Below are positions 1 through 30,745 of a stretch of 64,000 bases of DNA, piece by piece; the first letter of the stretch is position 1, and each line of letters starts with the position of its first letter. The translations under genes were made by a program, and so were the position numbers. The notes under the pieces are model-generated. The model saw only the letters and a list, made by a program, of their open reading frames with translations. It was not told the origin of the DNA and ran no database searches. This DNA comes from Escherichia phage vB_EcoM_SP13: sequence record OP352608; one strand, given 5' to 3'.

Positions 1-131
1 ATTTTAAAAACATTTATATTAATTTTTTTCATATCCTCATACTTATGTTAATTTATATATTTAACGTATCATCCGTAAGATATAAGTAAAAACAAAGACT
101 TGCGGCAATACGGATGATACGTCATGATACG
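1..131. repeat. AT-rich tract (1-60) followed by a perfect 14-bp inverted repeat ACGTATCATCCGTA, built from the same ATCCGTATC unit as the iteron locus near 16.1 kb
   Basis: Read directly: 64-77 acgtatcatccgta and 109-122 tacggatgatacgt (exact reverse complement); 1-60 is strongly A+T rich. Confidence 0.6.
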
Positions 132-360
132 CTTCAACCAGCCAGCAGCGGCTAAGTCGTTGATTTGCATAACAAGCGGCAAAAGGGATGGATTTCTTTT
201 ATACGTATCAAACAGTACACCACGCACCACGGTCCGTTATCCATTCAGCAATATGATTTGTGTACGTTTATAGCCATAATGAACATCAATCTGCACTTGA
301 ATATAATGTCCATCCATTGTATAATTCACACTATTAATTTGCACTATGGGATTTTGCACT

Positions 361-834
361 ATGAGTCAAGATTATGTAGCGATGCCTGAAGACTTTGAAG
401 ACCCGCGATTCGCAGAGCACAATCAGGCTTTATTCGATGAGTTCATTGACCTTGTTATTCAGGGTCATGACATGCGCGCAGCTTTTGCACTAGTATTTGG
501 AATGGAAGTTGCAACGGATAACTACACTGGCCAGCGAATCCTTTGCACGCAACGCAATCCATACTACAAGATGCGCTTCAAAAAGCGTATGGAAGAGATG
601 CCACTCAAGGATTTGTGGAGCGTAAAAGGTGCAATTCACAATTTGGTTAAGCTTGTTCGTGATCCAGAAGTCGCGGCGTCAGCCAAGCTTAATGCTATTC
701 GTGAACTGAATATCATCTACGGCATCACGATGATTGATGAAAACGGCAATAGTAAAATGGGCCGTTCCATGGACGATTTCTACAAGGATTTTGGAGAGGC
801 GGCCAAAGAAGGTGAGCAATTCTCCCGCCACTAG
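361..834 (+). CDS. hypothetical protein (about 158 aa)
   Basis: ORF 346..834 trimmed to the ATG at 361; an AATTTGCACTAT box ends on the start codon; no recognisable motif. Confidence 0.6.
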   Translation: MSQDYVAMPEDFEDPRFAEHNQALFDEFIDLVIQGHDMRAAFALVFGMEVATDNYTGQRILCTQRNPYYKMRFKKRMEEMPLKDLWSVKGAIHNLVKLVRDPEVAASAKLNAIRELNIIYGITMIDENGNSKMGRSMDDFYKDFGEAAKEGEQFSRH

Positions 835-948
835 CCAATTTGCACTATAAAACGGCCCTAGAACACATTTTCTCCAATTCTAGGGCCATCGGTAATACGA
901 CGGGGAAGGTTACAAACATAAACGCGTTAGAAAGTGTATTATTATAAG

Positions 949-1212
949 TCATCTTTTAGTCACCTTACGTAACAATTTACGACCTTCAACCGTCCAATCG
1001 AACGACTCCACCAGCAGATTCGCACTATAACCTAAGACGATGCGTCCCTTCTCGTTATCGACCCGCCAACAAGTCTCGAATAGCATTCGATTTGCACTAT
1101 TAACTATTGCCGCAACTCGCGTAGGATAAGCGCAATTTGAACTATGGTCGTAAAGGGATAAGGTGCGACCACTTCCGATGGACAACGTAGCGATGAGAAT
1201 GAGCGTATTCAT
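949..1212 (-). CDS. hypothetical small protein (coding status uncertain)
   Basis: 87-aa ORF with GGTGG RBS, but three AATTTGCACTAT-type boxes lie inside it on the opposite strand. Confidence 0.3.
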   Translation of the reverse strand: MNTLILIATLSIGSGRTLSLYDHSSNCAYPTRVAAIVNSANRMLFETCWRVDNEKGRIVLGYSANLLVESFDWTVEGRKLLRKVTKR

Positions 1213-1262
1213 AAGCCACCAATTTGCACTATGAAAAGCGACCCCGAAGGGCCGCCATTCGA

Positions 1263-1889
1263 TTAGATAATCTGGAAGGTATAGGATTTGTTGCCGAACT
1301 CAAAGTTCAAGCGCCCAGCTTCCTTAAGCTTCATGCGGAAGCGAATGTGCTTGCTATCCGGCAAGCCCAGCACGGCGAACGCTACGCGGACCGATTTGAA
1401 CTCGCCTACACCCTCGACCATAACGCCGTTACGGGTGAGACGCTTTTGCGCCACTTCCTTATTATCCCAACTTTTTGCAATACCTTCGCTATTCGAACGG
1501 CGATGGGAAGGAGTTCCATTTTGCACTACGCAATTTGCACTATCGTTTAGACCGCTCTTAACGAAGGCTTCATACTCTTCGTCGGTCATCGCGTCGAGTT
1601 CTTCCTGGGTCGGCTCGGCCTTTTTAACGACCGCACGCGCCTTATGCGTTTTTACATCGCTGGACACTTCCTCGCGCGACTTCGCTTCGGGGATGGGCGA
1701 TTCGTTGGACGGCTCATCGAGCGCGTTTAAGGACTCGATTAACGCGATTACGCGAGTCTCGGCGGTACGGCGGTCCGCAAATTTCTTAATCGGCTTCGAA
1801 CCGGAATTTGCATTATAAAATGCAACGAGGTCGGCGGTCTTAGTTGCGATAACGTCGCCGCTAGTCGAGAAACGATTTAAGCTAACCAT
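1263..1889 (-). CDS. hypothetical protein (208 aa)
   Basis: ORF with AGGAG RBS 7 nt before the ATG; GC-richer codon usage than most of the window; overlapping plus-strand ORFs judged less likely. Confidence 0.55.
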   Translation of the reverse strand: MVSLNRFSTSGDVIATKTADLVAFYNANSGSKPIKKFADRRTAETRVIALIESLNALDEPSNESPIPEAKSREEVSSDVKTHKARAVVKKAEPTQEELDAMTDEEYEAFVKSGLNDSANCVVQNGTPSHRRSNSEGIAKSWDNKEVAQKRLTRNGVMVEGVGEFKSVRVAFAVLGLPDSKHIRFRMKLKEAGRLNFEFGNKSYTFQII

Positions 1890-1969
1890 AATGAACTCCT
1901 ATTTGTTAGGGCGCTAGGCGCGAAAGAATTTTATTAAAGCGCCGCGCACGACGCTCTAAAAATCCTCTC

Positions 1970-2254
1970 TTACGCTTCGACGAGGGAGAAGGTCTCAAAT
2001 TCTTCTTCGCCCATAACGAGTAAGATGTTACCGATTTCGACCGCTTCGAAGAAGTATCCGTTAACGTTTACTTCGAAGGCTTCGCGGTCCGATTCCGGTA
2101 ACGCCGCGTAAAGTTTAAAAGCCTCGGCGACCGTTACCCCACCCGCCTCGATGGTCTGGTCTACGTTCGCGGCGTAGACTTCGGATAAAATTTGTTTTAC
2201 GCCGTAGTTCTCGACGATAGCGTTACGGATGGAAGAAACGTTAAGAATAGCCAT
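1970..2254 (-). CDS. small protein, paralog of the 2889..3179 product
   Basis: AGGAG RBS; shares VY-x-NVD-x-IE and VN-x-NG-F-x-E-IG segments with the 2889..3179 protein; preceded by promoter cassette copy A. Confidence 0.7.
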   Translation of the reverse strand: MAILNVSSIRNAIVENYGVKQILSEVYAANVDQTIEAGGVTVAEAFKLYAALPESDREAFEVNVNGYFFEAVEIGNILLVMGEEEFETFSLVEA

Positions 2255-2322
2255 TTTAAACTCCTAGTTGGGAGAGGCGTTAACGACCTATTCGCTAACT
2301 CATCCCGTCCCGATATGAGTAC

Positions 2323-2350
2323 ATTATAATATAGTGTAGAAAAAAGTAAA
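2323..2350 (-). promoter_or_regulatory. sigma70-like promoter (cassette copy A) for gene 1970..2254
   Basis: On minus strand: -35 TTTACT, 16-nt spacer, -10 TATAAT, then the conserved leader ATATCGGGACGGGATGAGTTAGCGAATAGGTCG shared with copies B and C. Confidence 0.55.
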
Positions 2351-2394
2351 GCACTTTTTCGATAAAAATGCGATAAATTATTTTATCTTTTTTC

Positions 2395-2422
2395 TTTACT
2401 TCTTCGTACACTCGCGTATACT
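2395..2422 (+). promoter_or_regulatory. sigma70-like promoter (cassette copy B) for gene 2479..2781
   Basis: -35 TTTACT (2395-2400), 16-nt spacer containing GTACACT, -10 TATACT (2417-2422), followed by TTGTTTATATCGAGACGGG. Confidence 0.55.
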
Positions 2423-2478
2423 TGTTTATATCGAGACGGGCGATGGCCCTTCCTTCTACTAGCATCGGGAGCTTTATT

Positions 2479-2781
2479 ATGACTACTTTAATCTCTTCCA
2501 TCCTTACTTACGACGAAGACCGTTTAACCGTTCGCTCTCTTATCGCCGCCGTTAACGCCGAACTAGAATCTAGCGCCATTAAGGTCCGCGCGGTTGCCTT
2601 CGTCGGTCTTTCCTTCGACGATATCAAGTACGCCGAACGTAGCGCCATCCGCTTCGCGAAGACCGACGACGAAGCCGTTACCCTTATCGAGACGGTTACT
2701 CCGCGCGGCGAAACGTTAATTATCGTCGAGTATATCGACGTAGAAGGCGATAAGGCTTATAAATATTTTATCGCAAAATAA
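2479..2781 (+). CDS. hypothetical small protein (100 aa)
   Basis: ORF 2422..2781 trimmed to ATG 2479 with GGGAG RBS; no recognisable motif. Confidence 0.65.
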   Translation: MTTLISSILTYDEDRLTVRSLIAAVNAELESSAIKVRAVAFVGLSFDDIKYAERSAIRFAKTDDEAVTLIETVTPRGETLIIVEYIDVEGDKAYKYFIAK

Positions 2782-2792
2782 CGAAAAAGTGC

Positions 2793-2821
2793 TTTACTTC
2801 TTAGTACACTAAGACTATAAT
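2793..2821 (+). promoter_or_regulatory. sigma70-like promoter (cassette copy C) with structured leader for gene 2889..3179
   Basis: -35 TTTACT (2793-2798), 17-nt spacer containing GTACACT, -10 TATAAT (2816-2821); leader 2837-2869 GGGATGAGGTAGCGAATAGGTCGCTACCCTCCC can form a stem-loop. Confidence 0.6.
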
Positions 2822-2888
2822 GTTTTATATCGAGAGGGGATGAGGTAGCGAATAGGTCGCTACCCTCCCGACTAACTAGGAGAATATT

Positions 2889-3179
2889 ATGATCACTTTA
2901 TCCGCTATCCGTGCCGCTCGCGTCGAAACTTCCGAAAACTCTAACGTATTTGGCGAAACCTTAGAGAGCGTTTATCTCTCTAACGTTGACGCGATTATCG
3001 AGTCTATTTATGAGCCGATCAACTTCCTCGACCTTTACAAGTATCGCGATGAGGACATCGTGTCCTACCGCGTAACGATTAACGGCTTCGTTTATACGAT
3101 TACCGAAATCGGCGGCGAATATCTCGCTGTACCGCAACTCGGCGGCGAAGTAACTTACTTTAAAATCGTAAGCCTTTAA
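2889..3179 (+). CDS. small protein, paralog of the 1970..2254 product
   Basis: AGGAGA RBS; paralogy visible in the translation. Confidence 0.75.
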   Translation: MITLSAIRAARVETSENSNVFGETLESVYLSNVDAIIESIYEPINFLDLYKYRDEDIVSYRVTINGFVYTITEIGGEYLAVPQLGGEVTYFKIVSL

Positions 3180-3190
3180 GGAGAAGAAAA

Positions 3191-3400
3191 ATGATTAATA
3201 TGAATAACTCTCTTAACGCGCGCGCCCATCGCACCGCCGTCATCGATATGTTCCGTGAGCTTAAGGACTTATGCGATAATATGAACGCGATGTTATCCAT
3301 CGGCGGCTGGGGATACGAAGAAGAAGTTAAATATGCGGTTATGCGTCGCCGTCGCGATAACGTCCTTGGGCAAATTAAACGCGCCGGATTATTCCTTTAA
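3191..3400 (+). CDS. hypothetical small protein (69 aa)
   Basis: AAGGAGAAG RBS; followed by a terminator. Confidence 0.65.
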   Translation: MINMNNSLNARAHRTAVIDMFRELKDLCDNMNAMLSIGGWGYEEEVKYAVMRRRRDNVLGQIKRAGLFL

Positions 3401-3426
3401 TTATAATCAACCACCGTTACTAATAG

Positions 3427-3451
3427 GCCGCGCTTAGTCGCGGCTTTTCTT
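3427..3451 (+). terminator. rho-independent terminator
   Basis: GCCGCG-cttagt-CGCGGC hairpin followed by TTTTCTT. Confidence 0.7.
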
Positions 3452-3570
3452 CGTCCCTATCTCGGTGCGCTCCTACGCGAAAACTCCTTTATCCTTCCCT
3501 TCGTCGTCGCATAATCTTCGTCGATATGCGCCTTAGTTCGCATAACAGGTATTACGTTAAATGGAGAACA

Positions 3571-3832
3571 TCGCGTAAGTCCTTGTTTTATATAGACACC
3601 TATATCGGACCGTTAGGGCGGGTCGCGTAAGTCGTTGTTTTATAAAGGCGCAAAACTTTCCCTTCGTTCCGAACTAAAACGAGGAATATGCCGACCCTTC
3701 GTCCGAAAATAGTACGCATGCGAAATTACATGCATCTAGAATAATCCCCACAGATATTATCCTACACGCAATCATTCGCTTTCGAATCATTATGCTTCAT
3801 ATTATTATGCGTCGAATCATTCGCTTTCGAAT
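3571..3832. repeat. Direct repeats in a roughly 700-bp non-coding stretch
   Basis: TCGCGTAAGTC(C/G)TTGTTTTATA at 3571-3592 and 3623-3644; AATCATTCGCTTTCGAAT at 3770-3787 and 3815-3832; no convincing ORF or tRNA cloverleaf found by eye. Confidence 0.5.
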
Positions 3833-5653: not shown

Positions 5654-7963
5654 TTATTTTGCTGATTTCAGCGCGGCTATCTCTGCCTTGAGTTCACCTA
5701 TCTGATCCATGAGTGCAAGAATAGCCTCGTGGTGCAATGCCGCTGCCACTCCGTAAGTGTCGACTGATTTGACATCCTTGACCACGGTCCCATCAGCCAG
5801 TTCCATATCACCTGAAACAGAAACGGCTTCTGGGAAATCAACCTCAACATCTTGAGCCACGAATCCAAAACCTACTTTCGCGCCGTCAGTTTTCAATCGC
5901 CATGACACGCCATTAATCCTTTTCATCTTGGTCAATGGGTCTTGAATCTTGACAATCTCATCCTTGATTCTGACGTCTGAAGAAGTACCCCAACCGCCAG
6001 CGCAAACAGCATTACCTGCTTGCAGGAATTGGAAATACTTGTTGGTGCCTACACCGCCAGCAGTAGTGGTCATTATGGTCACATCGCCATTACGCTCAGA
6101 ATATACCCGACCATACGTTGCTGTGTTGGCACTGTTCTTAAAATCGATGAACGATTGGTTGTTGGTGTTTCCAATGAACGTCGCTTGACCGCCGCGAGTT
6201 ATCAACTGGCCTTTTGCATCAACGTTCCCAGAGCTGGTGATCAAGTTATTTGGCACAAGCAAGTTGCCGTTGTCGACAAAATCGAATGCCTGGCTGGCGG
6301 CAGTCGTCAAATTGGTAACGGTCAATCGCATGTAATAAGCGCCACCGATAACAGCGCGAATGCGCATGCGACCTTCAGCCTCAACAGCAGTCCCCACTCG
6401 ATACTCCGACATGACGCTGCCGCCGTCAGCGGTCGTGCCTGGACCTGGCATTGCCGTATCGCCGTTTATAACAGACCATTGCGTATTCGCCGCTGTGAAT
6501 CCACCGGATGCACGAATCACCCAAACGCCTGAAAAGTTGCGCGGCAATACTTCATCTGTTGCAAGGTTGTTACGACCGTAAGCTGGGCTTGAGTTAGAAG
6601 CTCTTAGCGCAACGCTTCCCAAAGAGTTCGCACCAGAACTTAAAAGCGAAACACCTCTTACATATCGCGGAATGGTGAATCCTTCTCCATTGATGAATGC
6701 GCCGCCAGCACCTGCGACAACCGTTCCTGATGCTGGTTCACTTGCAGGGCCGGACCCGTGGAAGTTGATGTTGCCAGTGATGTTTGGCAGGAAGGATTCC
6801 ATTATCATTCCGTCATTTGACGAGTTGCCGCCATCGCCACGGGCAAAAAGTGCACGAACACTTCCTGTCTGAACGCCGTTACGGTCTGGAACACGGAATG
6901 TTGTTGTTCCGTTGCCTAAAGAATACTTTCCGCGCTTCAGCGGGTCAGCCAACCAATCTGCATCAGCAATAGGCGTAAGCATTTGCGCATAAGCCCAAAG
7001 CTCAGGCCAGTCTGCACGGTTAAGCAATTGTCCGTCGGCAACAACTTCATACGACTGAATATAGGCGCGACTGTCGCGCAGGTGAAAGTCACCAACGCCA
7101 TAGTTCATTACGCCGTTCATGCTTGGGCCAACGGTGCCAGTATTTACTAAGTTCTCAACCCAACGCTTCGTCGCGGCATCATAATCATTGACGGGGTCGC
7201 CAGCCAGTGGTGTTGAGCCTTGTGGACGAATATTCAACCATGCTTGCGCATTGTCTGCTGATCCTGTGCCGCCCATGGAAGTTGGAACGATGCTCTGATC
7301 AGCAACAGGGCCAAATCCAAAGGCATCTTTCATTCCCTGAATAGTCGTTTGACCTGTGCCGCCGTTTGCAATTGGAATTGTGCTTTGTGAACTATAAATT
7401 TGCGCCCAAGGCGACCATGAAGATGTTTCAGCATTGTACCTTCTTTGGTACAAGTTATTTGAGTTGAATGTGGTGTATCTTTGAATGCAACTTTCCAAAG
7501 ATATGGCAGTCTGCAGGACTTCCAATATCCCAGCTTCCAAGGCTACTGGATAGTTGAGGGATGTCTGCGCAGCAGCATTTGAATATTGGTAATATTGCCC
7601 AAACCAAGTTCCAGTCAAAGAGTTCAGATTTATCCCCGACGGCAAAAGTCCAAAATTCCTGACAGTATTGGTCAAAGATGCGGCAGTTGTTCGAATGGAA
7701 AGCATGTCGCCTGCCGCCCATGCGCGCGCTGCAGTTCCTTCCTGTGCACGCTGCACAGTCAGGACGTTCCCAACCACGGCTGTTACAGTGATGATTTCAA
7801 ATTGGAGGCCTGTTGCAGCGTCGACGATTGTCGCCACTACACGCTCGTTTGCACCCAAGGTCGGAAAGCCCGACCCTGAGCGGATTGTGATTGTGGTGTC
7901 TGAAGTCGTCGCTGGCTGAGCGAGCGCGACCTCAAAGTTGTTTTTGAATATTAGCCTTGGCAT
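5654..7963 (-). CDS. tail fibre/tailspike protein with C-terminal self-cleaving intramolecular chaperone domain (peptidase S74-like)
   Basis: N-terminal TITIRSGSGF...VTAVVGNVLTVQRAQEGT fibre-anchor-like segment; Gly/Ser/Thr-rich repetitive body; C-terminal GGWGTSSDVRIKDEI ... FGFVAQDVE ... LKAEIAALK pattern as in endosialidase-type chaperone domains; CGAGGA RBS. Confidence 0.75.
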   Translation of the reverse strand: MPRLIFKNNFEVALAQPATTSDTTITIRSGSGFPTLGANERVVATIVDAATGLQFEIITVTAVVGNVLTVQRAQEGTAARAWAAGDMLSIRTTAASLTNTVRNFGLLPSGINLNSLTGTWFGQYYQYSNAAAQTSLNYPVALEAGILEVLQTAISLESCIQRYTTFNSNNLYQRRYNAETSSWSPWAQIYSSQSTIPIANGGTGQTTIQGMKDAFGFGPVADQSIVPTSMGGTGSADNAQAWLNIRPQGSTPLAGDPVNDYDAATKRWVENLVNTGTVGPSMNGVMNYGVGDFHLRDSRAYIQSYEVVADGQLLNRADWPELWAYAQMLTPIADADWLADPLKRGKYSLGNGTTTFRVPDRNGVQTGSVRALFARGDGGNSSNDGMIMESFLPNITGNINFHGSGPASEPASGTVVAGAGGAFINGEGFTIPRYVRGVSLLSSGANSLGSVALRASNSSPAYGRNNLATDEVLPRNFSGVWVIRASGGFTAANTQWSVINGDTAMPGPGTTADGGSVMSEYRVGTAVEAEGRMRIRAVIGGAYYMRLTVTNLTTAASQAFDFVDNGNLLVPNNLITSSGNVDAKGQLITRGGQATFIGNTNNQSFIDFKNSANTATYGRVYSERNGDVTIMTTTAGGVGTNKYFQFLQAGNAVCAGGWGTSSDVRIKDEIVKIQDPLTKMKRINGVSWRLKTDGAKVGFGFVAQDVEVDFPEAVSVSGDMELADGTVVKDVKSVDTYGVAAALHHEAILALMDQIGELKAEIAALKSAK

Positions 7964-8984: not shown

Positions 8985-9199
8985 CAGTCTTCACCTTGAG
9001 ATTCCAGACAAGTAAGGACAAGCCAAGTCATCGGAAGAATCAAAACCAGAGAAATGAGGGACCAGATAGACCAGCACAGGATGACAGACTTGAATGTGTG
9101 AACGTCGCCAAACGCAGCAGTAAAACAGAATCCCATTACAAATGCAATAGCGGTGGAATGGTTGTCTATGGCTTTGATGGCACGGTCGATGAGTTTCAT
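8984..9199 (-). CDS. small membrane protein with holin-like topology
   Basis: GGAGGT RBS; 71 aa with two or three hydrophobic helices; no adjacent lysin, so a holin role is speculative. Confidence 0.5.
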   Translation of the reverse strand: MKLIDRAIKAIDNHSTAIAFVMGFCFTAAFGDVHTFKSVILCWSIWSLISLVLILPMTWLVLTCLESQGED

Positions 9200-9348
9200 A
9201 TTACCTCCGGTTTTGAGTTAATATGATTATAACGCAGAGTCTCAGAAAGGCAAACTTTTTGTGAATTTTAATCAAAAAAAATGGCCAGAAAAAAATCTGG
9301 CCGAAAGATCACCCTTTATCCACTACTAAGCTGGAATCATAATTTTAC

Positions 9349-9378
9349 TTGATATAGCTTGTACAAGCAAACTATAAT
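9349..9378 (+). promoter_or_regulatory. promoter-like element upstream of the terminase gene
   Basis: -35 TTGATA, 18-nt spacer, -10 TATAAT abutting the ATG at 9379, which would favour the in-frame ATG at 9412 as the real start. Confidence 0.4.
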
Positions 9379-10839
9379 ATGAATAAAATATTAACACATA
9401 ATTGGAAATTCATGTACCAGTTGAATCCTGCTTTAAAAGAAGTCTGGAAGACAAAAGCGCGATACAAAGTAATATACGGCGGTCGTGCATCTTCCAAATC
9501 GCACGATGCCGCTGGTTTTGCTATTTATTTGGCGGCAAACTTCAAATTAAAATTCCTTTGCGTTCGACAATTCCAGAACAAAATTTCTGAATCTGTATAT
9601 ACTCTATTAAAAGACAAAATAGAGATTTCTGATTTCAAAGATGAGTTCAATTTATTAAAGAACTCTATTGAACATAAAAGAACTAAATCTGAATTTCTAT
9701 TTTACGGTATCGCACGTAACGTTGATGAAATTAAATCAACAGAAGGTGTTGACGTCCTTTGGCTGGAAGAAGCGCACGCGCTTACTGAAGAACAGTGGGA
9801 CATTATTGAGCCGACAATCCGTAAAGAAGGGTCCGAAATATGGATCATCTTTAACCCCGATGAAGAGGCCGATTTTGTCTACCAAAACTTTGTTATGCGA
9901 CCGCCGAAGAATGCCATTGTTAAAAAGATAAACTGGCAAGACAATCCATTTTTGTCGCAAACGATGCTGGACGTTATTGCAGGCATGTACGAGCGCGACC
10001 CGAAAAAGGCAGAGCACGTTTATGGCGGCGTGCCGAAGACTGGCGGCGATAAATCTGTAATCAACCGCGCATTCGTTAAGGCCGCGCTTAATCTCCACAA
10101 ACACCCTACGCTGGGATGGAGTTTGTCAGGGTCTAACCGTATAGGCTTTGACGTAGCGGACGATGGCGACGACCTTAACGCCACTGCATTCGTTACAGGA
10201 AACGTATTGCGCGGCATCAAGACATGGGAAGGTCTGGAAGATGAATTGTTAAAATCGGCAAGCGGAGTTTGGAAAGATGCGCTTACATTTGGCGCTTCTA
10301 TAACTTATGACGCCATCGGTGTCGGCGCTTTTGCTGGTTCAAAATTTGATGAACTGAACGAGTATGCAATACATGAAAATCCATCATTTCCAAGAATCGA
10401 ATTTAATGCGTTCAATGCGCAAGGGTCTGTTGATGATCCTGATGACGTTTTTCTTGAATTACCACACGTTGAAATACTCAATAAAGACCATTTCGCAAAC
10501 ATAAAAGCGCAAAAGTGGACTGAAATTGCAGAGAGATTCAGAAAGACATACGAATATGCAACTGGGCAAGCCGTATATCCGACTGATGAGTTGATTTCAA
10601 TCGACACCGATGGCATACCAGAACTTGGAATTCCAGCTTGGACTACTGAAGAGATTGAGACGTTTCTTTTTGAGATGTCAGCGCCGCGCAAAGATACGTC
10701 TGTTCTTGGCAAGTTCAAAGTTGAATCTAAAAAGGATATGGCAAAGCGTGGAGTCAAATCACCTAACAAAGCGGACGCGGCAATCATGGCATTAATGAAA
10801 CCAATCGTTGCAGCATCCGGCTTCTTCTCTAACCTTTAA
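9379..10839 (+). CDS. terminase large subunit
   Basis: N-terminal deviant P-loop RYKVIYGGRASSKSH typical of large terminases, acidic nuclease-type C-terminal half, position upstream of the portal; alternative start at 9412. Confidence 0.85.
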   Translation: MNKILTHNWKFMYQLNPALKEVWKTKARYKVIYGGRASSKSHDAAGFAIYLAANFKLKFLCVRQFQNKISESVYTLLKDKIEISDFKDEFNLLKNSIEHKRTKSEFLFYGIARNVDEIKSTEGVDVLWLEEAHALTEEQWDIIEPTIRKEGSEIWIIFNPDEEADFVYQNFVMRPPKNAIVKKINWQDNPFLSQTMLDVIAGMYERDPKKAEHVYGGVPKTGGDKSVINRAFVKAALNLHKHPTLGWSLSGSNRIGFDVADDGDDLNATAFVTGNVLRGIKTWEGLEDELLKSASGVWKDALTFGASITYDAIGVGAFAGSKFDELNEYAIHENPSFPRIEFNAFNAQGSVDDPDDVFLELPHVEILNKDHFANIKAQKWTEIAERFRKTYEYATGQAVYPTDELISIDTDGIPELGIPAWTTEEIETFLFEMSAPRKDTSVLGKFKVESKKDMAKRGVKSPNKADAAIMALMKPIVAASGFFSNL

Positions 10840-10842
10840 CAA

Positions 10843-11082
10843 TCAAAGCATTCCGTGCTGAAGGTCTAGTTTTCTTGCAGCAAATGACCTGGCACGGAAT
10901 CGCTTACCCGCCCTTACTGCCTGCCGAATCTTCTTTTGCATACACTTACGGTCAAAATCGTTGCGGTCAACGGCTTCGAGTAAATCCCGACGCAAAGCAC
11001 CTAGTGTCGCCTTTTCGGATAATTCTACGCCCAGCGCGGCTGCAACGTCTTTCAAAACATCGAGTTCGGTTAACGTTCTCAT
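10843..11082 (-). CDS. hypothetical small protein with basic C-terminus
   Basis: 79-aa ORF on the opposite strand between terminase and portal. Confidence 0.45.
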   Translation of the reverse strand: MRTLTELDVLKDVAAALGVELSEKATLGALRRDLLEAVDRNDFDRKCMQKKIRQAVRAGKRFRARSFAARKLDLQHGML

Positions 11083-11495
11083 TTGATAATCCCCTTGATG
11101 TCTGATTCTGCCATAAAGATTGGAGTGCCGCCGCCAGGAACAATCGAGCGCGTTACTTTGTCGAACATATCGTTTTCTTCAACTTGAATACGATAAAATT
11201 TATTCTTGGATGAAGATGGGCACAATTCCATAAATTTACCAATGCCGCGAACGCATTCATCTTCAAAGTATACTGTTTCACCTTGAATGGATTCGATGTT
11301 TTCAACCGGATACACCTTGCGACCTAAAAGCCATTCATCCATGGTCGCCTGCAACACGCTTCTCGCATCCAAAATCCAAGGGTCAACTGTGGCACCTTCA
11401 TATCGCGCAGCAGTGGCTTTTGCCAGCTCTTCATATTCGCATACGTTTACTACTTCGCCTTGATGAAGGACGACAAATACAATTGTTGTGCTCAT
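11079..11495 (-). CDS. hypothetical protein (138 aa)
   Basis: ORF on the opposite strand between terminase and portal; 4-nt overlap with the downstream gene. Confidence 0.5.
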   Translation of the reverse strand: MSTTIVFVVLHQGEVVNVCEYEELAKATAARYEGATVDPWILDARSVLQATMDEWLLGRKVYPVENIESIQGETVYFEDECVRGIGKFMELCPSSSKNKFYRIQVEENDMFDKVTRSIVPGGGTPIFMAESDIKGIIK

Positions 11496-11590
11496 TTCAA
11501 TCTCCTTTCGTTTGGTTAACTAAAATATAACTCAAAATGATACAAAAGCAAAATATTTTATGAACTATTTATGATTACTATACATATCAT

Positions 11591-11619
11591 TTGCTTACAA
11601 ACACATGAATATTTATAAT
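11591..11619 (+). promoter_or_regulatory. sigma70-like promoter upstream of the portal gene
   Basis: -35 TTGCTT, 17-nt spacer, -10 TATAAT in an AT-rich divergent intergenic region. Confidence 0.5.
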
Positions 11620-11657
11620 ATAGATTGATTCCCTTTCACTGTCAGGTGGCGTTAACA

Positions 11658-14033
11658 ATGAAAATTCTTGGCATAAAACTCTGGGAGAAGACGCGACCAG
11701 AAGCCGAACCAGCGGAGATGCCGCCAGGCGACCCATTGGCACCGTTTGAACGCCTTGAAAGGCGCGGCAGCGGTCAACGCTGGGAAAAGACTGAAAGCAA
11801 TCGACCGACCTTTAAAACGGTTGATGACTTCCCTTTATATGAGCCTGATATTAACGGGGACGGTGTTGCAATCATCAAAGGTCGCTCAGTAGATTCAGCA
11901 ACCGTATCCAAAAAAGTTATGGATAATGCCTTAAAGAACATCAGTTCAGAAGGGCAGGTGAATCCATACACAGTGCCTATTCAGTTGCAAAACTGGTACT
12001 TATCGCAATCATTTATCGGATATCAAGCTTGCGCCATCATCGCGCAGCACTGGCTAGTGAACAAGGCTTGTTCCATGGTAGGCCGCGATGCGGTCCGTAA
12101 AGGCTGGGAAGTCAAATCCAGTTCTGAGTCGGAATTGTCAGTACAGGCCAGCGAACGCTTAAAGCAAATTGATAAAGAATTTAACATCAAAGAGCACTTA
12201 GTTGAAGCCGAACGATTCAAGAATATTTTTGGCATCCGCGTCATCATATTTGATGTGCGCAGTGATGACCCAGAATATTATAGCAAACCTTTTAACATCG
12301 ATGGTGTGACAAAAGGGTCTTATAAGGGAATCATTCAGGTTGACCCTTATTGGATGATGCCATTCTTGACGTCTGAAAACACTGCAGACCCTGCGTCACA
12401 GCATTTCTATGATCCAGAATACTGGGTGATCAGCGGACAGCGTTATCATCGCAGCCACCTAATCATCTTGCGCAACGATGAGCCAGCTGATATTCTCAAG
12501 CCGACTTATATCTACGGCGGCATTCCTCTGACTCAGCAGATTTATGAACGTATCTATGCCGCTGAACGTACCGCTAACGAAGCGCCATTGCTGGCGATGT
12601 CTAAGCGTACAACCACGCTTCGGACCGACGTTGACAAGGCGATTGCCAATGAGCGGTCGTTTGCCGAACGTCTGATGATGTGGATTAAGTACCGCGACAA
12701 CTATGCAGTCAAAGTGCTTGGTCAGAAAGAAGAGATGGACCAGTTCGACATCAACTTGTCAGACTTCGACAGCATCATCATGAACCAGTACCAGCTGGTG
12801 GCCGCAATCGCAAAAGTTCCGTCGACAAAACTGTTAGGGACGTCACCTAAAGGCTTTAACGCCACTGGTGAGTTCGAAATGGTCAGCTATCACGAAGAAT
12901 TGGAGACTTGTCAACAGCACGATTTGACGAAGATTCTTGACCGCCACTATAAAATCCTTTTGAAGTCTGAAGGCGTGGAAGTCGACGTTAAAGTGGCATG
13001 GGAGCCAGTTGGTTCACTTACTGCTACTCAGCTTGCAGAGATTAACGACAAACGAGCGAATACTGGCAAGACTCTCATTGATGCTGGCGTAATCTCCCCT
13101 GATGAAGAGCGCGACCGCATCAAGGACGACAAAAACAGCGGCTACAACCGTTTGCCGGAAGATGCAGCAGAAGAAACCCCAGGGATGTCTCCAGAGAATA
13201 TGGCACTGCTTGGCAAGTCTGCTGGTGAAGTTCTGCAAGGCAAGGCCGATATTGAACAGGCCAAAGCTGATGTTGTCAAGATGGGCGGCCAGTTCTATAG
13301 CGAGACTGGTATTATGCCGGAAGGTGCCGCGCGTGGTGAGTTGGCGGAAAACCCTGACAGGGCACCAGTTGAGATTAACATGGATGATACCGATGACGAA
13401 TCAAGCCATCACGTTGATGTCCTAACGCAACTGAAAGAAGGTCTGGAGGGTATTGCTGACTATTACCTTAAAGAAGGTCAGGACGTGGATTTTGACCCTC
13501 AAAAAGATGCAAGGTCGGTGCAACCGTCTACGCTTCCAAGCGTAAAAGGAAATGTCGTGAACTTGCGACACAATGTAGGGAAGATGGATGCTGCATCGCT
13601 GCCTAAGATGAAGTTGCACGGGATGATTCTTGGTATTGAGAATCCTCGCAACAGCATTCGCAGGGGTAACAGCCTTGATGGTGAATGGGCAGTTAAGATG
13701 CCGCACCATTACGGATTTATCAAAGGCACCAAGGGCGCTGATGGTGATGAAGTCGACTGCTTTGTTGGACCAAACATGAAGTCGCCTAAAGTATTCATCA
13801 TTAACCAAAATGATAATTATTCTGGCGAATTTGATGAACACAAGTGTATGCTTGGATTTGATTCAGCAGAAGAAGCGAAAGAAGCTTATCAGGCGTCATT
13901 TGGTAACGGTTGGAACGGATTTGACTCAATCCACGAATTGGATGTAAACTCATTCAAGGAGTGGTTGAAGGGTGATTGCTCTCAAGCATATGGAGCACTC
14001 AACAATCCTACTAATTCACCGAAGCAAGGTTGA
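11658..14033 (+). CDS. portal protein (with extended C-terminal region)
   Basis: ORF trimmed to ATG 11658 after AGGTGG RBS; size and position between terminase and head-morphogenesis gene; no portal motif verified. Confidence 0.65.
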   Translation: MKILGIKLWEKTRPEAEPAEMPPGDPLAPFERLERRGSGQRWEKTESNRPTFKTVDDFPLYEPDINGDGVAIIKGRSVDSATVSKKVMDNALKNISSEGQVNPYTVPIQLQNWYLSQSFIGYQACAIIAQHWLVNKACSMVGRDAVRKGWEVKSSSESELSVQASERLKQIDKEFNIKEHLVEAERFKNIFGIRVIIFDVRSDDPEYYSKPFNIDGVTKGSYKGIIQVDPYWMMPFLTSENTADPASQHFYDPEYWVISGQRYHRSHLIILRNDEPADILKPTYIYGGIPLTQQIYERIYAAERTANEAPLLAMSKRTTTLRTDVDKAIANERSFAERLMMWIKYRDNYAVKVLGQKEEMDQFDINLSDFDSIIMNQYQLVAAIAKVPSTKLLGTSPKGFNATGEFEMVSYHEELETCQQHDLTKILDRHYKILLKSEGVEVDVKVAWEPVGSLTATQLAEINDKRANTGKTLIDAGVISPDEERDRIKDDKNSGYNRLPEDAAEETPGMSPENMALLGKSAGEVLQGKADIEQAKADVVKMGGQFYSETGIMPEGAARGELAENPDRAPVEINMDDTDDESSHHVDVLTQLKEGLEGIADYYLKEGQDVDFDPQKDARSVQPSTLPSVKGNVVNLRHNVGKMDAASLPKMKLHGMILGIENPRNSIRRGNSLDGEWAVKMPHHYGFIKGTKGADGDEVDCFVGPNMKSPKVFIINQNDNYSGEFDEHKCMLGFDSAEEAKEAYQASFGNGWNGFDSIHELDVNSFKEWLKGDCSQAYGALNNPTNSPKQG

Positions 14034-30688: not shown

Positions 30689-30745
30689 AATATTGCTTAT
30701 AGACTCCTTATAGATTATAATTTGTTGATCAGATATAAGGAGTCT

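What the first reader, a model, noticed from the sequence alone, without database searches (positions are those of the whole stretch)
10843..11495. Opposite-strand two-gene insert between terminase and portal genes
Terminase and portal genes are normally adjacent and co-directional. Here two minus-strand ORFs (138 aa and 79 aa, the latter with a basic C-terminus) are wedged between them with their own divergent AT-rich control region (11496-11657). This placement is typical of morons such as superinfection-exclusion, toxin or anti-defence genes.
Basis: inference. Interest (0 to 1): 0.5.

Follow-up and report, generated by a model that had tools for sequence, protein, structure and literature searches.

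The report
Conserved two-gene leftward operon beside portal
The two reverse-strand genes between the terminase and portal genes of this E. coli phage are real, expressed, non-virion genes, but they are the leftover core of an old gene cassette shared with related phages rather than a recently acquired 'moron', and their function is still unknown.

Summary
The window is Escherichia phage F13 (Wifcevirus). Both ORFs exist exactly as described: 79 aa and 138 aa on the minus strand, with an ATGA overlap, good ribosome-binding sites and an AT-rich 162-bp spacer shared with the portal gene. They are genuine genes. dN/dS is 0.06-0.08 with substitutions concentrated at third codon positions, and published HiBiT tagging of the 138-aa orthologue gives signal during infection. 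Virion mass spectrometry did not detect either protein.

They are not an insert. All 28 sequenced Wifcevirus genomes carry both, and their composition is native. The 138-aa gene is a distant orthologue of Pbunavirus gp17 (phrog_5124), which is always the first gene of an opposite-strand cassette next to the portal promoter. That cassette has 14 genes in Pbunavirus, 4-7 in Kyle-like relatives and 2 here. A lipoprotein protease that sits between the two genes in relatives has been lost, with a decay remnant still visible in one lineage.

The small-terminase idea is refuted, because TerS lies at window 361-834. No defence, toxin or exclusion signature was found.

The best reading is a pair of conserved, host-RNAP-transcribed, non-structural binding proteins: a Tudor/Sm/KOW-like barrel protein and a protein with an arginine-rich tail. 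A regulatory or host-takeover role is inferred, not shown. Interest is low to moderate.

The parts
10843..11082 (-). orf79: a 79-aa protein with an acidic N-terminal half (pI 4.6) and an Arg/Lys-rich C-terminal tail (pI 11.9). It is the second gene of the leftward operon. It equals F13_0039, vB_Eco4M-7 gp34 and Bas98_0002.
11079..11495 (-). orf138: an acidic 138-aa two-domain protein, with an N-terminal beta-beta-alpha-beta unit and a C-terminal small beta-barrel. It is the first gene of the leftward operon. It equals F13_0040 and vB_Eco4M-7 gp35, and is a distant member of phrog_5124 (Pbunavirus 14-1 gp17).
11090..11096 (-). Shine-Dalgarno sequence AAGGGGA of orf79, 7 nt upstream of its ATG, lying inside the 3' end of orf138. 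The ATGA stop/start overlap at 11079-11082 suggests translational coupling.
   Evidence: read from the sequence; Mansfield annotators mark an RBS at the same place
11501..11508 (-). Shine-Dalgarno sequence AAAGGAGA of orf138, 5 nt upstream of its ATG.
   Evidence: read from the sequence; RBS annotated in Mansfield
11524..11551 (-). Proximal leftward sigma70-type promoter candidate for orf138: -35 TTGCTT (11551->11546), 16-nt spacer, -10 TATATT (11529->11524). Both hexamers are conserved (TTGCTT or TTGACT, then TATATT, TATAAT or TATAGT) in six lineages.
11591..11619 (+). Rightward portal promoter candidate: TTGCTT, 17 nt, TATAAT. This is a perfect example of the promoter form that recurs in this genome. 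Its -35 and -10 are invariant from F13 to Kyle.
   Evidence: phage 14-1 has an annotated sigma70 promoter at the equivalent place
11617..11645 (-). Distal leftward promoter-like site (CTGACA, 17 nt, TATATT). Its -10 overlaps the -10 of the portal promoter back to back. It rests on a consensus match only.
11496..11657 (.). The 162-bp AT-rich divergent control region shared by orf138 and the portal gene. Only 4 of 162 sites vary among 8 Wifcevirus genomes.
9412..10839 (+). Flank: the terminase large subunit gene (an alternative in-frame ATG lies at 9379). It converges on orf79 with a 3-bp gap.
11658..14033 (+). Flank: the portal protein gene, with a C-terminal InPase (PF18823) domain. It is the first gene of the rightward structural operon.

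Best explanation
The two ORFs form a short leftward operon of phage F13 (Wifcevirus). It is probably transcribed by host sigma70 RNA polymerase from a promoter in the 162-bp spacer that it shares back to back with the portal (structural-operon) promoter. The two genes are probably translationally coupled through the ATGA overlap. They are vertically inherited, non-virion genes. They are the minimal remnant of an ancestral opposite-strand cassette that fills the terminase-portal gap in Pbunavirus, Myosmarvirus, Kylevirus, Wifcevirus and related uncultured phages; BcepF1 lacks it. orf138 is the orthologue of Pbunavirus gp17 (phrog_5124), which is always the first gene next to the portal promoter. 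orf79 is specific to the enterobacterial branch. In relatives a lipoprotein Trypsin_2 protease sits between the two genes, and a DUF2786 gene and others follow. Wifcevirus has lost all of those and kept only these two. What is shown: gene reality, purifying selection, synteny, homology, lack of detection in virions, and expression of the 138-aa protein. What is inferred: both act inside the infected cell as binding proteins rather than enzymes. orf138 would act through a Tudor/Sm/KOW-like small beta-barrel. orf79 would act through a conserved Arg/Lys-rich tail, probably on nucleic acid or on the transcription/RNA machinery. Their role would be regulation or host takeover, possibly at their own divergent promoter region. 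My sub-probabilities: about 0.8 that they are a conserved native non-structural operon and not a moron, and about 0.3 that they are specifically nucleic-acid- or RNAP-directed regulators.
Against: No direct functional datum exists for either protein. The barrel fold is generic, and Foldseek found nothing below E 1e-3 in the PDB. Sequence-level tests against CarD-RID, NusG-KOW and Rho_N were all negative. No transcription start sites or timing data were available for this genus. Promoter-like sites in the region are not more numerous than in shuffled sequence. There is no clear terminator at the 3-bp junction with TerL. MyoSmar, TropicalSun and BcepF1 have related TerL and portal genes but no detectable orf138 or orf79 homologue, so the pair is not universally required in the wider clade. 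dN/dS is about five times higher than in TerL and portal. The phage tolerated a C-terminal tag on gp35 together with an ATG-to-GTG change and displacement of the gp34 RBS, with no loss of plaques. That would also fit a dispensable accessory function.
Confidence: 0.55

Rival explanations
1. Moron-type accessory genes: a superinfection-exclusion, toxin or anti-defence pair that benefits the phage only on particular hosts.
For: The unit is on the opposite strand and has its own promoter region. The terminase-portal slot clearly exchanges accessory genes in related genera: a T4 Imm-like membrane protein in MyoSmar, and a lipoprotein protease and DUF2786 gene gained or lost elsewhere. orf79 is restricted to one branch. 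Constraint is about five times weaker than on the neighbours. Perturbing the gp35/gp34 junction cost no plaques.
Against: There is no presence/absence polymorphism in 28 of 28 close relatives. orf138 is syntenic across genera that infect Pseudomonas, Pantoea and Escherichia. Composition is native. Neither protein has a membrane segment: maximum KD(19) is 0.9 and 1.3, against 2.8 for the Imm-like protein. There are no PADLOC, Pfam or PHROG functional hits. In Pbunavirus the defined anti-defence island is a different locus, gp80-88 (PMC13307970). In Wifcevirus itself, a gene with no match in F13 was seen upstream of TerL rather than in this gap.
Confidence: 0.2
2. A non-virion morphogenesis or packaging accessory factor, for example a chaperone or cofactor for the portal or terminase, kept between those two genes because it works with them.
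For: The position of orf138 immediately beside the portal gene is conserved over large evolutionary distance. It is a core gene in Pbunavirus. It is expressed at a level comparable to the portal tag. It is an acidic small protein.
Against: It is transcribed divergently from the structural operon, from its own promoter. It is absent from MyoSmar, TropicalSun and BcepF1, which have homologous TerL and portal-InPase genes. It was not detected in virion preparations and is not mentioned in the E217 virion study. Its operon partners in relatives are a lipoprotein protease, DUF2786 and an RNAP-binding protein, none of them assembly genes.
Confidence: 0.15
3. A toxin-antitoxin-like or abortive two-gene module, with an acidic neutraliser upstream and a basic effector downstream.
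For: The two genes are small and overlapping, with opposite net charge (-8 and +7).
Against: In five related lineages a protease gene or its remnant separates the two genes, so tight pairing is derived, not ancestral. Pbunavirus has the 138-aa homologue without any 79-aa homologue. There is no toxin or antitoxin family hit.
Confidence: 0.03
4. One of the two ORFs is the small terminase subunit, which is not annotated anywhere in F13.
For: No TerS is annotated in F13 or in the BASEL Wifcevirus genomes, and the pair lies next to TerL.
Against: Pbunavirus 14-1 gp76 is the solved E217-type TerS (PDB 7UXE, E 2.5e-125). Its homologue is at window 364-801 (41% identity, E 4e-36). Phage Mansfield annotates that gene as TerS. 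In E217, TerS is likewise far from TerL (PMC9611059).
Confidence: 0.01

Closest known systems
phrog_5124 / Pbunavirus gp17 (14-1 ORF16, phiKT28_019): a conserved hypothetical protein
   Same: It is homologous to orf138 (hhalign probability 97.9%). It has the same length class (133 against 138 aa), the same two-domain layout, and the same position and orientation: the first gene of the opposite-strand cassette, divergent from the portal gene.
   Different: Identity is only about 25%. The Pbunavirus protein lacks the linker segment (F13 residues about 48-58) and has a C-terminal extension. It is followed by 13 other genes rather than by orf79. Its function is unknown in both phages.
The terminase-portal opposite-strand cassette of Kylevirus and related uncultured phages (138-like, lipoprotein Trypsin_2 protease, 79-like, an ORF of about 100 aa, DUF2786/DUF7168)
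   Same: The gene order, orientation, divergent promoter footprint and homologues of both ORFs are shared.
   Different: Wifcevirus lacks the protease, the ~100-aa ORF and DUF2786. The two survivors are now directly fused by an ATGA overlap. L007 shows an intermediate state, a 45-aa remnant with the lipobox joined to the protease C-terminus.
Tudor/Sm/KOW/SH3-like small beta-barrel domains (for example LSm proteins, the Spt5/NusG KOW domain, the CarD/TRCF RNAP-interacting domain, and Rof/YaeO)
   Different: There is no significant sequence relationship: Pfam sub-threshold only, hhalign probability 2% to CarD and 0.4% to NusG KOW, and Foldseek E above 0.06. The N-terminal domain has no match.
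Phage morons as defined in lambdoid phages (an autonomous promoter-gene-terminator unit inserted between two genes of a conserved operon)
   Same: The unit is on the opposite strand with its own promoter, lying between two head genes that are adjacent in many phages.
   Different: It is not polymorphic among close relatives, not compositionally distinct, has no clear terminator, is ancestral at this site, and sits in a virulent phage.

Membership tests
phrog_5124 (Pbunavirus gp17 family), for orf138 | Significant profile-level sequence similarity over most of the length | tested here: met
   PHROG hmmscan E 1.7e-3 for the window protein; 1.9e-5 and 1.8e-4 for intermediate members and 1.4e-87 for 14-1 gp17; family profile against phiKT28_019 E 5.6e-11; hhalign probability 97.9%, E 6e-13, 118 columns.
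phrog_5124 (Pbunavirus gp17 family), for orf138 | Conserved genomic position: first gene of the opposite-strand cluster, divergent from the portal gene | tested here: met
Moron | Presence/absence polymorphism among otherwise collinear close relatives | tested here: not met
   Both ORFs are in 28 of 28 Wifcevirus records. Eight aligned segments are collinear at exactly 4,655 bp with no indels.
Moron | Base composition or codon usage distinct from the surrounding genome | tested here: not met
   GC z +0.94 and -0.68; GC3 z -0.03 and -0.87; codon-usage distance within the range of small genes.
Moron | Autonomous transcription unit with its own promoter and terminator | tested here: inconclusive
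   Promoter hexamers are conserved across six lineages. No canonical terminator is present; there is only a non-significant hairpin with a U-rich tail at 10900->10850. No transcript data are available.
Superinfection exclusion/immunity proteins (T4 Imm/Sp-like, Sie) | Membrane or periplasmic localisation (a transmembrane helix or signal peptide) | tested here: not met
   Maximum Kyte-Doolittle(19) is 0.91 (orf79) and 1.28 (orf138), against 2.81 for the MyoSmar Imm-like protein.
Superinfection exclusion/immunity proteins (T4 Imm/Sp-like, Sie) | Homology to a known exclusion protein | tested here: not met
   There are no Pfam, PHROG or PADLOC hits. The Imm-like gene of MyoSmar is a different gene in the same slot.
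Type II toxin-antitoxin pair | A recognisable toxin or antitoxin domain | tested here: not met
Type II toxin-antitoxin pair | The two genes are obligately adjacent and co-inherited | tested here: not met
   A protease gene or its remnant separates them in L005, L007, L015, L016 and Kyle. Pbunavirus has the 138-like gene alone.
Small terminase subunit (TerS) | Homology to a characterised TerS of the clade (E217 TerS, PDB 7UXE) | tested here: not met
   The 7UXE homologue is a different gene, at window 364-801. PDB profile searches with both families found nothing.
Anti-defence proteins | Location in the clade's variable anti-defence island, or homology to known anti-defence proteins | tested here: not met
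Anti-defence proteins | Host-specific plating defect when the gene is deleted | not testable with these tools
   This needs phage genetics.
KOW / Tudor-like RNAP-interacting domains (NusG/Spt5 KOW, CarD_TRCF_RID) | Small five-stranded beta-barrel fold | tested here: met
KOW / Tudor-like RNAP-interacting domains (NusG/Spt5 KOW, CarD_TRCF_RID) | Sequence-profile membership | tested here: not met
   CarD_TRCF_RID is hit by 1 of 10 members at E 0.18. hhalign probability is 2% (CarD) and 0.4% (NusG KOW).

The most novel reading that the evidence does not exclude
orf138 (phrog_5124) is a previously unrecognised, clade-wide phage factor. Its Tudor/KOW-like barrel would dock on host RNA polymerase or on the shared divergent promoter region. 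Together with the arginine-rich orf79 in the enterobacterial branch, it would time the switch between leftward (early) transcription and portal/structural-operon transcription. That would be a new family of transcription-timing regulators in the Pbunavirus-Wifcevirus group, which includes widely used therapeutic phages.
Probability: 0.12. Interest if true: 0.6.

Novelty: new member of a known kind. Interest (0 to 1): 0.25.

Why it matters
As it stands this is an ordinary result: two conserved hypothetical genes in an already sequenced phage, with the 'moron' reading largely set aside. The useful outcomes are these. (1) The 138-aa gene is linked to a core gene (gp17, phrog_5124) of Pbunavirus, a genus much used in phage therapy, so any functional result transfers across genera. 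(2) The terminase-portal gap is shown to be an ancestral opposite-strand cassette that shrinks from 14 genes to 2. That marks these two as the members retained in Wifcevirus, and orf138 as the gene most widely retained across genera, which makes them priority targets for knock-outs. (3) A published reboot and tagging system for vB_Eco4M-7 already exists, so the decisive experiments are straightforward.

Tried and rejected
- Direct Pfam, PHROG and PADLOC scans of both proteins gave only sub-threshold hits. Scans of divergent members, and of the whole family alignment, showed no recurrent family.
- PDB sequence-profile searches with three alignments found nothing meaningful.
- The exhaustive profile search of 1.84 billion representatives found only 4 credible clusters for the 138-aa family. 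Word-indexed searches found few relatives.
- The CarD-RID and NusG-KOW leads were rejected at sequence level.
- The TerS hypothesis was refuted.
- The idea that the intergenic spacer is unusually conserved was tempered. It is far more conserved than third codon positions (P about 4e-26), but most intergenic regions in this genus are 94-100% identical between F13 and Mansfield.
- A search for repeated operator-like copies of the conserved spacer blocks elsewhere in the window found none.
- Rfam found no match. The putative 5' leader and the 3' hairpin do not fold better than shuffles, with z -0.16 and -1.45.
- Foreign composition was not seen.
- The afdb50 fold library was unavailable.
- The primary E217 terminase paper is not held. 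The supplements of the 14-1 ONT-cappable-seq paper are not held. PhageExpressionAtlas has no Pbunavirus or Wifcevirus data.

Full report
**What the window is.** The 4.66-kb stretch from terminase to portal is 100% identical to Escherichia phage F13 (OP745617.1, genus Wifcevirus). It is 91-98% identical to 27 other Wifcevirus records. F13 annotates the two ORFs as hypothetical proteins F13_0039 and F13_0040.

**Checking the observation.** The ORF list and the raw sequence confirm a 79-aa ORF at 10843-11082 and a 138-aa ORF at 11079-11495, both on the minus strand. The stop of the upstream gene overlaps the start of the downstream gene (ATGA). The large terminase gene (PF04466, E 3e-37) ends at 10839, 3 bp from the stop of orf79. 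The portal gene (PF06381, E 5e-88, fused to a C-terminal PF18823 InPase domain) starts at 11658. The 162-bp spacer has about 30% GC. Both ORFs are preceded by good Shine-Dalgarno sequences, AAAGGAGA and AAGGGGA, read and also marked by the annotators of phage Mansfield. The last 36 residues of orf79 have pI 11.9 and net charge about +10. Its N-terminal half is acidic, and orf138 is acidic overall, with pI 4.7.

**Are they real genes?** I aligned the collinear 4,655-bp segment from eight Wifcevirus genomes; there were no indels. dN/dS is 0.062 for orf79 and 0.075 for orf138, against 0.013-0.014 for TerL and portal. Variable sites fall at codon positions 1/2/3 as 5/0/26 in orf79 and 10/3/50 in orf138. 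So both are under purifying selection as proteins, though about five times less tightly than their structural neighbours.

Published experiments add direct evidence.
- In the synthetic-phage study of vB_Eco4M-7, gp35 (138 aa, the orthologue of orf138) was C-terminally HiBiT-tagged. Plaque yield was unchanged: 336 against 332 for untagged phage (PMC11074155).
- From that paper's Supplementary Table 2, the signal of the gp35 tag above the untagged control is about 3.1 million RLU (ATCC 43888), 0.38 million (Ec134) and 2.4 million (Ec135). For the portal tag the figures are 10.8, 0.19 and 14.9 million (the differences are my arithmetic on the published means).
- Virion mass spectrometry of vB_Eco4M-7 and ECML-117 detected the portal and many structural proteins but neither gp34 nor gp35, nor their ECML-117 equivalents (PMC7048862).
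- The primers show that the gp35 tag changed gp34's ATG to GTG and moved its ribosome-binding site 33 nt away. Since plaques were unaffected, exact gp34 dosage is not critical in the laboratory. This does not show dispensability.

**Is it an insert?** No. Both ORFs are present in all 28 Wifcevirus records at 93-100% amino-acid identity. Their GC, GC3 and codon usage lie within the genome's range. In the F13-Mansfield comparison, a gene with no match in F13 (Mansfield gene 020) lies upstream of TerL, not in this gap.

Related genera all have an opposite-strand cassette in the same gap, of differing size:

| Lineage | Genes in the gap |
|---|---|
| Pbunavirus (14-1 gp04-gp17) | 14 |
| Myosmarvirus (includes a T4 Imm-like membrane protein) | 8 |
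| L016 (uncultured) | 7 |
| L007 (uncultured) | 6 |
| Pantoea phage Kyle | 5 |
| L015 (uncultured) | 5 |
| L005 (uncultured) | 4 |
| Wifcevirus | 2 |

BcepF1 instead has two small co-directional genes in the gap.

In the enterobacterial lineages the order is constant: a 138-like gene, a lipoprotein Trypsin_2 protease, a 79-like gene, sometimes an ORF of about 100 aa and others, then a DUF2786/DUF7168 gene converging on TerL. L007 retains only a 45-aa relic of the protease. The relic joins the lipobox signal peptide directly to the protease's C-terminal motif; tblastn to the L005 protease C-terminus gives E 5e-6. Wifcevirus has lost the protease cleanly, along with the ~100-aa ORF and DUF2786. 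None of these is found in the window or in the rest of the Bas98 genome that was searched. The pair in the window is therefore what remains of an ancestral cassette, not something wedged in.

**How far do the two families reach?** They are narrow. An exhaustive profile search of 1.84 billion representative proteins found only four credible clusters for orf138. Word-indexed searches found a handful of relatives for either protein. A profile that included the most divergent members did detect the portal-proximal gene of Pbunavirus, phiKT28_019 / 14-1 gp17. hmmsearch gave E 5.6e-11 and hhalign gave probability 97.9% and E 6e-13 over 118 columns. That gene defines phrog_5124 ('unknown function'). 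The window protein, Kyle's protein and P0012 each hit phrog_5124 weakly on their own. It is present in 298 Pbunavirus records, essentially always labelled hypothetical. orf138 is thus a positionally conserved core gene of the Pbunavirus-Kylevirus-Wifcevirus group. No homologue was detected in MyoSmar, TropicalSun or BcepF1. orf79 has homologues in all the enterobacterial lineages examined but none in Pbunavirus.

**The control region.** Only 4 of 162 spacer positions vary among the eight genomes, against 36.5% of third codon positions (P about 4e-26). This is not exceptional for the genus, however. Between F13 and Mansfield most intergenic regions are 94-100% identical, while coding regions are 85-97%. 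The alignment of the spacer from six lineages, out to Kyle, is more telling. Three elements are conserved:
- the portal promoter, TTGCTT-17 nt-TATAAT, at 11591-11619;
- a proximal leftward promoter, TTGCTT or TTGACT, 16 nt, then TATATT or TATAAT, at 11551->11524, just upstream of the orf138 ribosome-binding site;
- an invariant TATTATA that can serve as a -10 in both directions.

TTGCTT-N16/17-TATAAT recurs elsewhere in the window, with perfect copies at 30693 and 56761. So both promoters belong to the phage's general sigma70-type class. Phage 14-1 has an annotated sigma70 promoter at the equivalent place. A distal leftward site (11645->11617) overlaps the portal -10 back to back, but it is only a consensus match. 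No canonical terminator separates orf79 from TerL. A hairpin with a U-rich tail at 10900->10850 is not significant. No Rfam family or significant leader structure was found.

**Rival ideas.**
- Small terminase. This was attractive because no TerS is annotated in F13 or in the BASEL genomes. But in the relative E217, TerS lies about 58 kb from TerL (PMC9611059). 14-1 gp76 is that solved protein (7UXE, E 2.5e-125). Its homologue is at window 364-801 (41% identity, E 4e-36), and Mansfield annotates it as TerS. Refuted.
- Anti-defence. PADLOC, which holds defence-system rather than anti-defence models, gave no hit. The Pbunavirus anti-defence island is gp80-88, a different locus (PMC13307970). The pair also shows none of the variability typical of such genes.
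- Superinfection exclusion. Neither protein has a membrane segment. The Imm-like gene in MyoSmar's slot is unrelated.
- Toxin-antitoxin. A protease gene separates the two genes in most relatives.
- Morphogenetic accessory. This cannot be excluded, but it sits poorly with divergent transcription, lack of detection in virions, and absence from MyoSmar and BcepF1, which share the same head genes.

**Best explanation.** The pair is a native, vertically inherited, probably host-RNAP-transcribed leftward operon of non-structural proteins. I put the probability that this is so, rather than a moron, at about 0.8. How the proteins work is inferred, not shown. The fold of orf138 and the basic tail of orf79 suggest binding proteins rather than enzymes. 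The company they keep in relatives fits this: the same leftward cluster in 14-1 includes gp12, reported to bind the RNAP alpha subunit (PMC10914365). So does their position on a shared, deeply conserved divergent promoter region. Together these make a regulatory or host-takeover role directed at nucleic acid or the transcription machinery the most likely class (about 0.3), ahead of host-specific accessory functions (about 0.2) and assembly help (about 0.15).

**Novelty and verdict.** The genes are already in public records as hypothetical proteins. What is new here is modest: the link of orf138 to phrog_5124 / Pbunavirus gp17, the reconstruction of the cassette's reduction series, and the exclusion of the TerS and moron readings. 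I classify it as a new (distant) member of a known kind, with low-to-moderate interest (0.25).

Noticed in passing
window 361-834 (+): This gene is the small terminase subunit. It is homologous to Pbunavirus 14-1 gp76, the E217-type TerS solved as PDB 7UXE (41% identity, E 4e-36). It is annotated only as 'hypothetical' in F13 (F13_0021) and Bas98 (Bas98_0096) but as TerS in phage Mansfield. It lies about 8.6 kb upstream of TerL, separated from it by opposite-strand genes.
   Followed up: yes
window 11658-14033 (+), residues about 660-782 of the product: The portal protein carries a C-terminal InPase domain (PF18823, E 4e-46), a domain otherwise seen in polyvalent and DarB-like phage proteins. 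The fusion is conserved in Kyle, MyoSmar, L005 and L016. In the E217 virion structure only portal residues 97-528 of 765 were modelled.
   Followed up: partly
window 9226-10839: TerL is a lone plus-strand gene between two minus-strand clusters. It has its own promoter-like site (TTGATA, 18 nt, TATAAT at 9349-9378) and a terminator-like hairpin upstream at 9283-9302. It is therefore not co-transcribed with either TerS or portal.
   Followed up: partly
window about 9200-9411; Mansfield (L024) 9102-9332: Mansfield gene 020 (231 bp), immediately upstream of TerL, has no match in F13. In the F13-Mansfield comparison, the gene without a counterpart lies here, not in the TerL-portal gap. The tail-fibre gene (window 5654-7963) is also only partly alignable, at 79% identity over its C-terminal half.
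   Followed up: partly
L005 8411-9019; L004 8414-8959; L015 7353-7952; L016 7426-7998; remnant at L007 3250-3387: Related phages encode a lipoprotein (lipobox L-A-G-C) Trypsin_2 serine protease between the 138-like and 79-like genes. L007 keeps only a 45-aa fusion of the signal peptide to the C-terminal motif. A lipoprotein protease in a virulent phage's early-type cassette is unexplained.
   Followed up: partly
window 11591, 26629, 30693, 56761 (+), plus about 8 one-mismatch sites: A recurrent promoter form, TTGCTT (or TTGACT), 16-18 nt, TATAAT, is scattered through the genome. Intergenic regions are generally more conserved than coding DNA between F13 and Mansfield; several are 100% identical.
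   Followed up: partly
L006 8001-8471 (Logan ERR4605272 contig): A metagenomic Wifcevirus contig carries a frameshifted orf138 (product P0008, 156 aa, diverging after residue about 103). I could not tell whether this is an assembly error or a natural pseudogene.
   Followed up: no
L003 (MyoSmar) 6955-7281; L002 (TropicalSun) 2146-2460: In Myosmarvirus the same terminase-portal slot contains a T4 Imm-like superinfection-immunity membrane protein (maximum KD hydropathy 2.8). So the slot does hold exclusion-type genes in some genera.
   Followed up: partly
window 1266-1877 (-): This is a homologue of Pbunavirus 14-1 gp77 (37% identity, E 9e-34), also present in MyoSmar. It is another conserved hypothetical gene next to TerS across genera.
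   Followed up: no
L024 (Mansfield) 1-3673: Mansfield's record annotates a 3,673-bp direct terminal repeat predicted by PhageTerm. The window's coordinates run almost in register with Mansfield's, so the window probably starts near the physical genome end.
   Followed up: no
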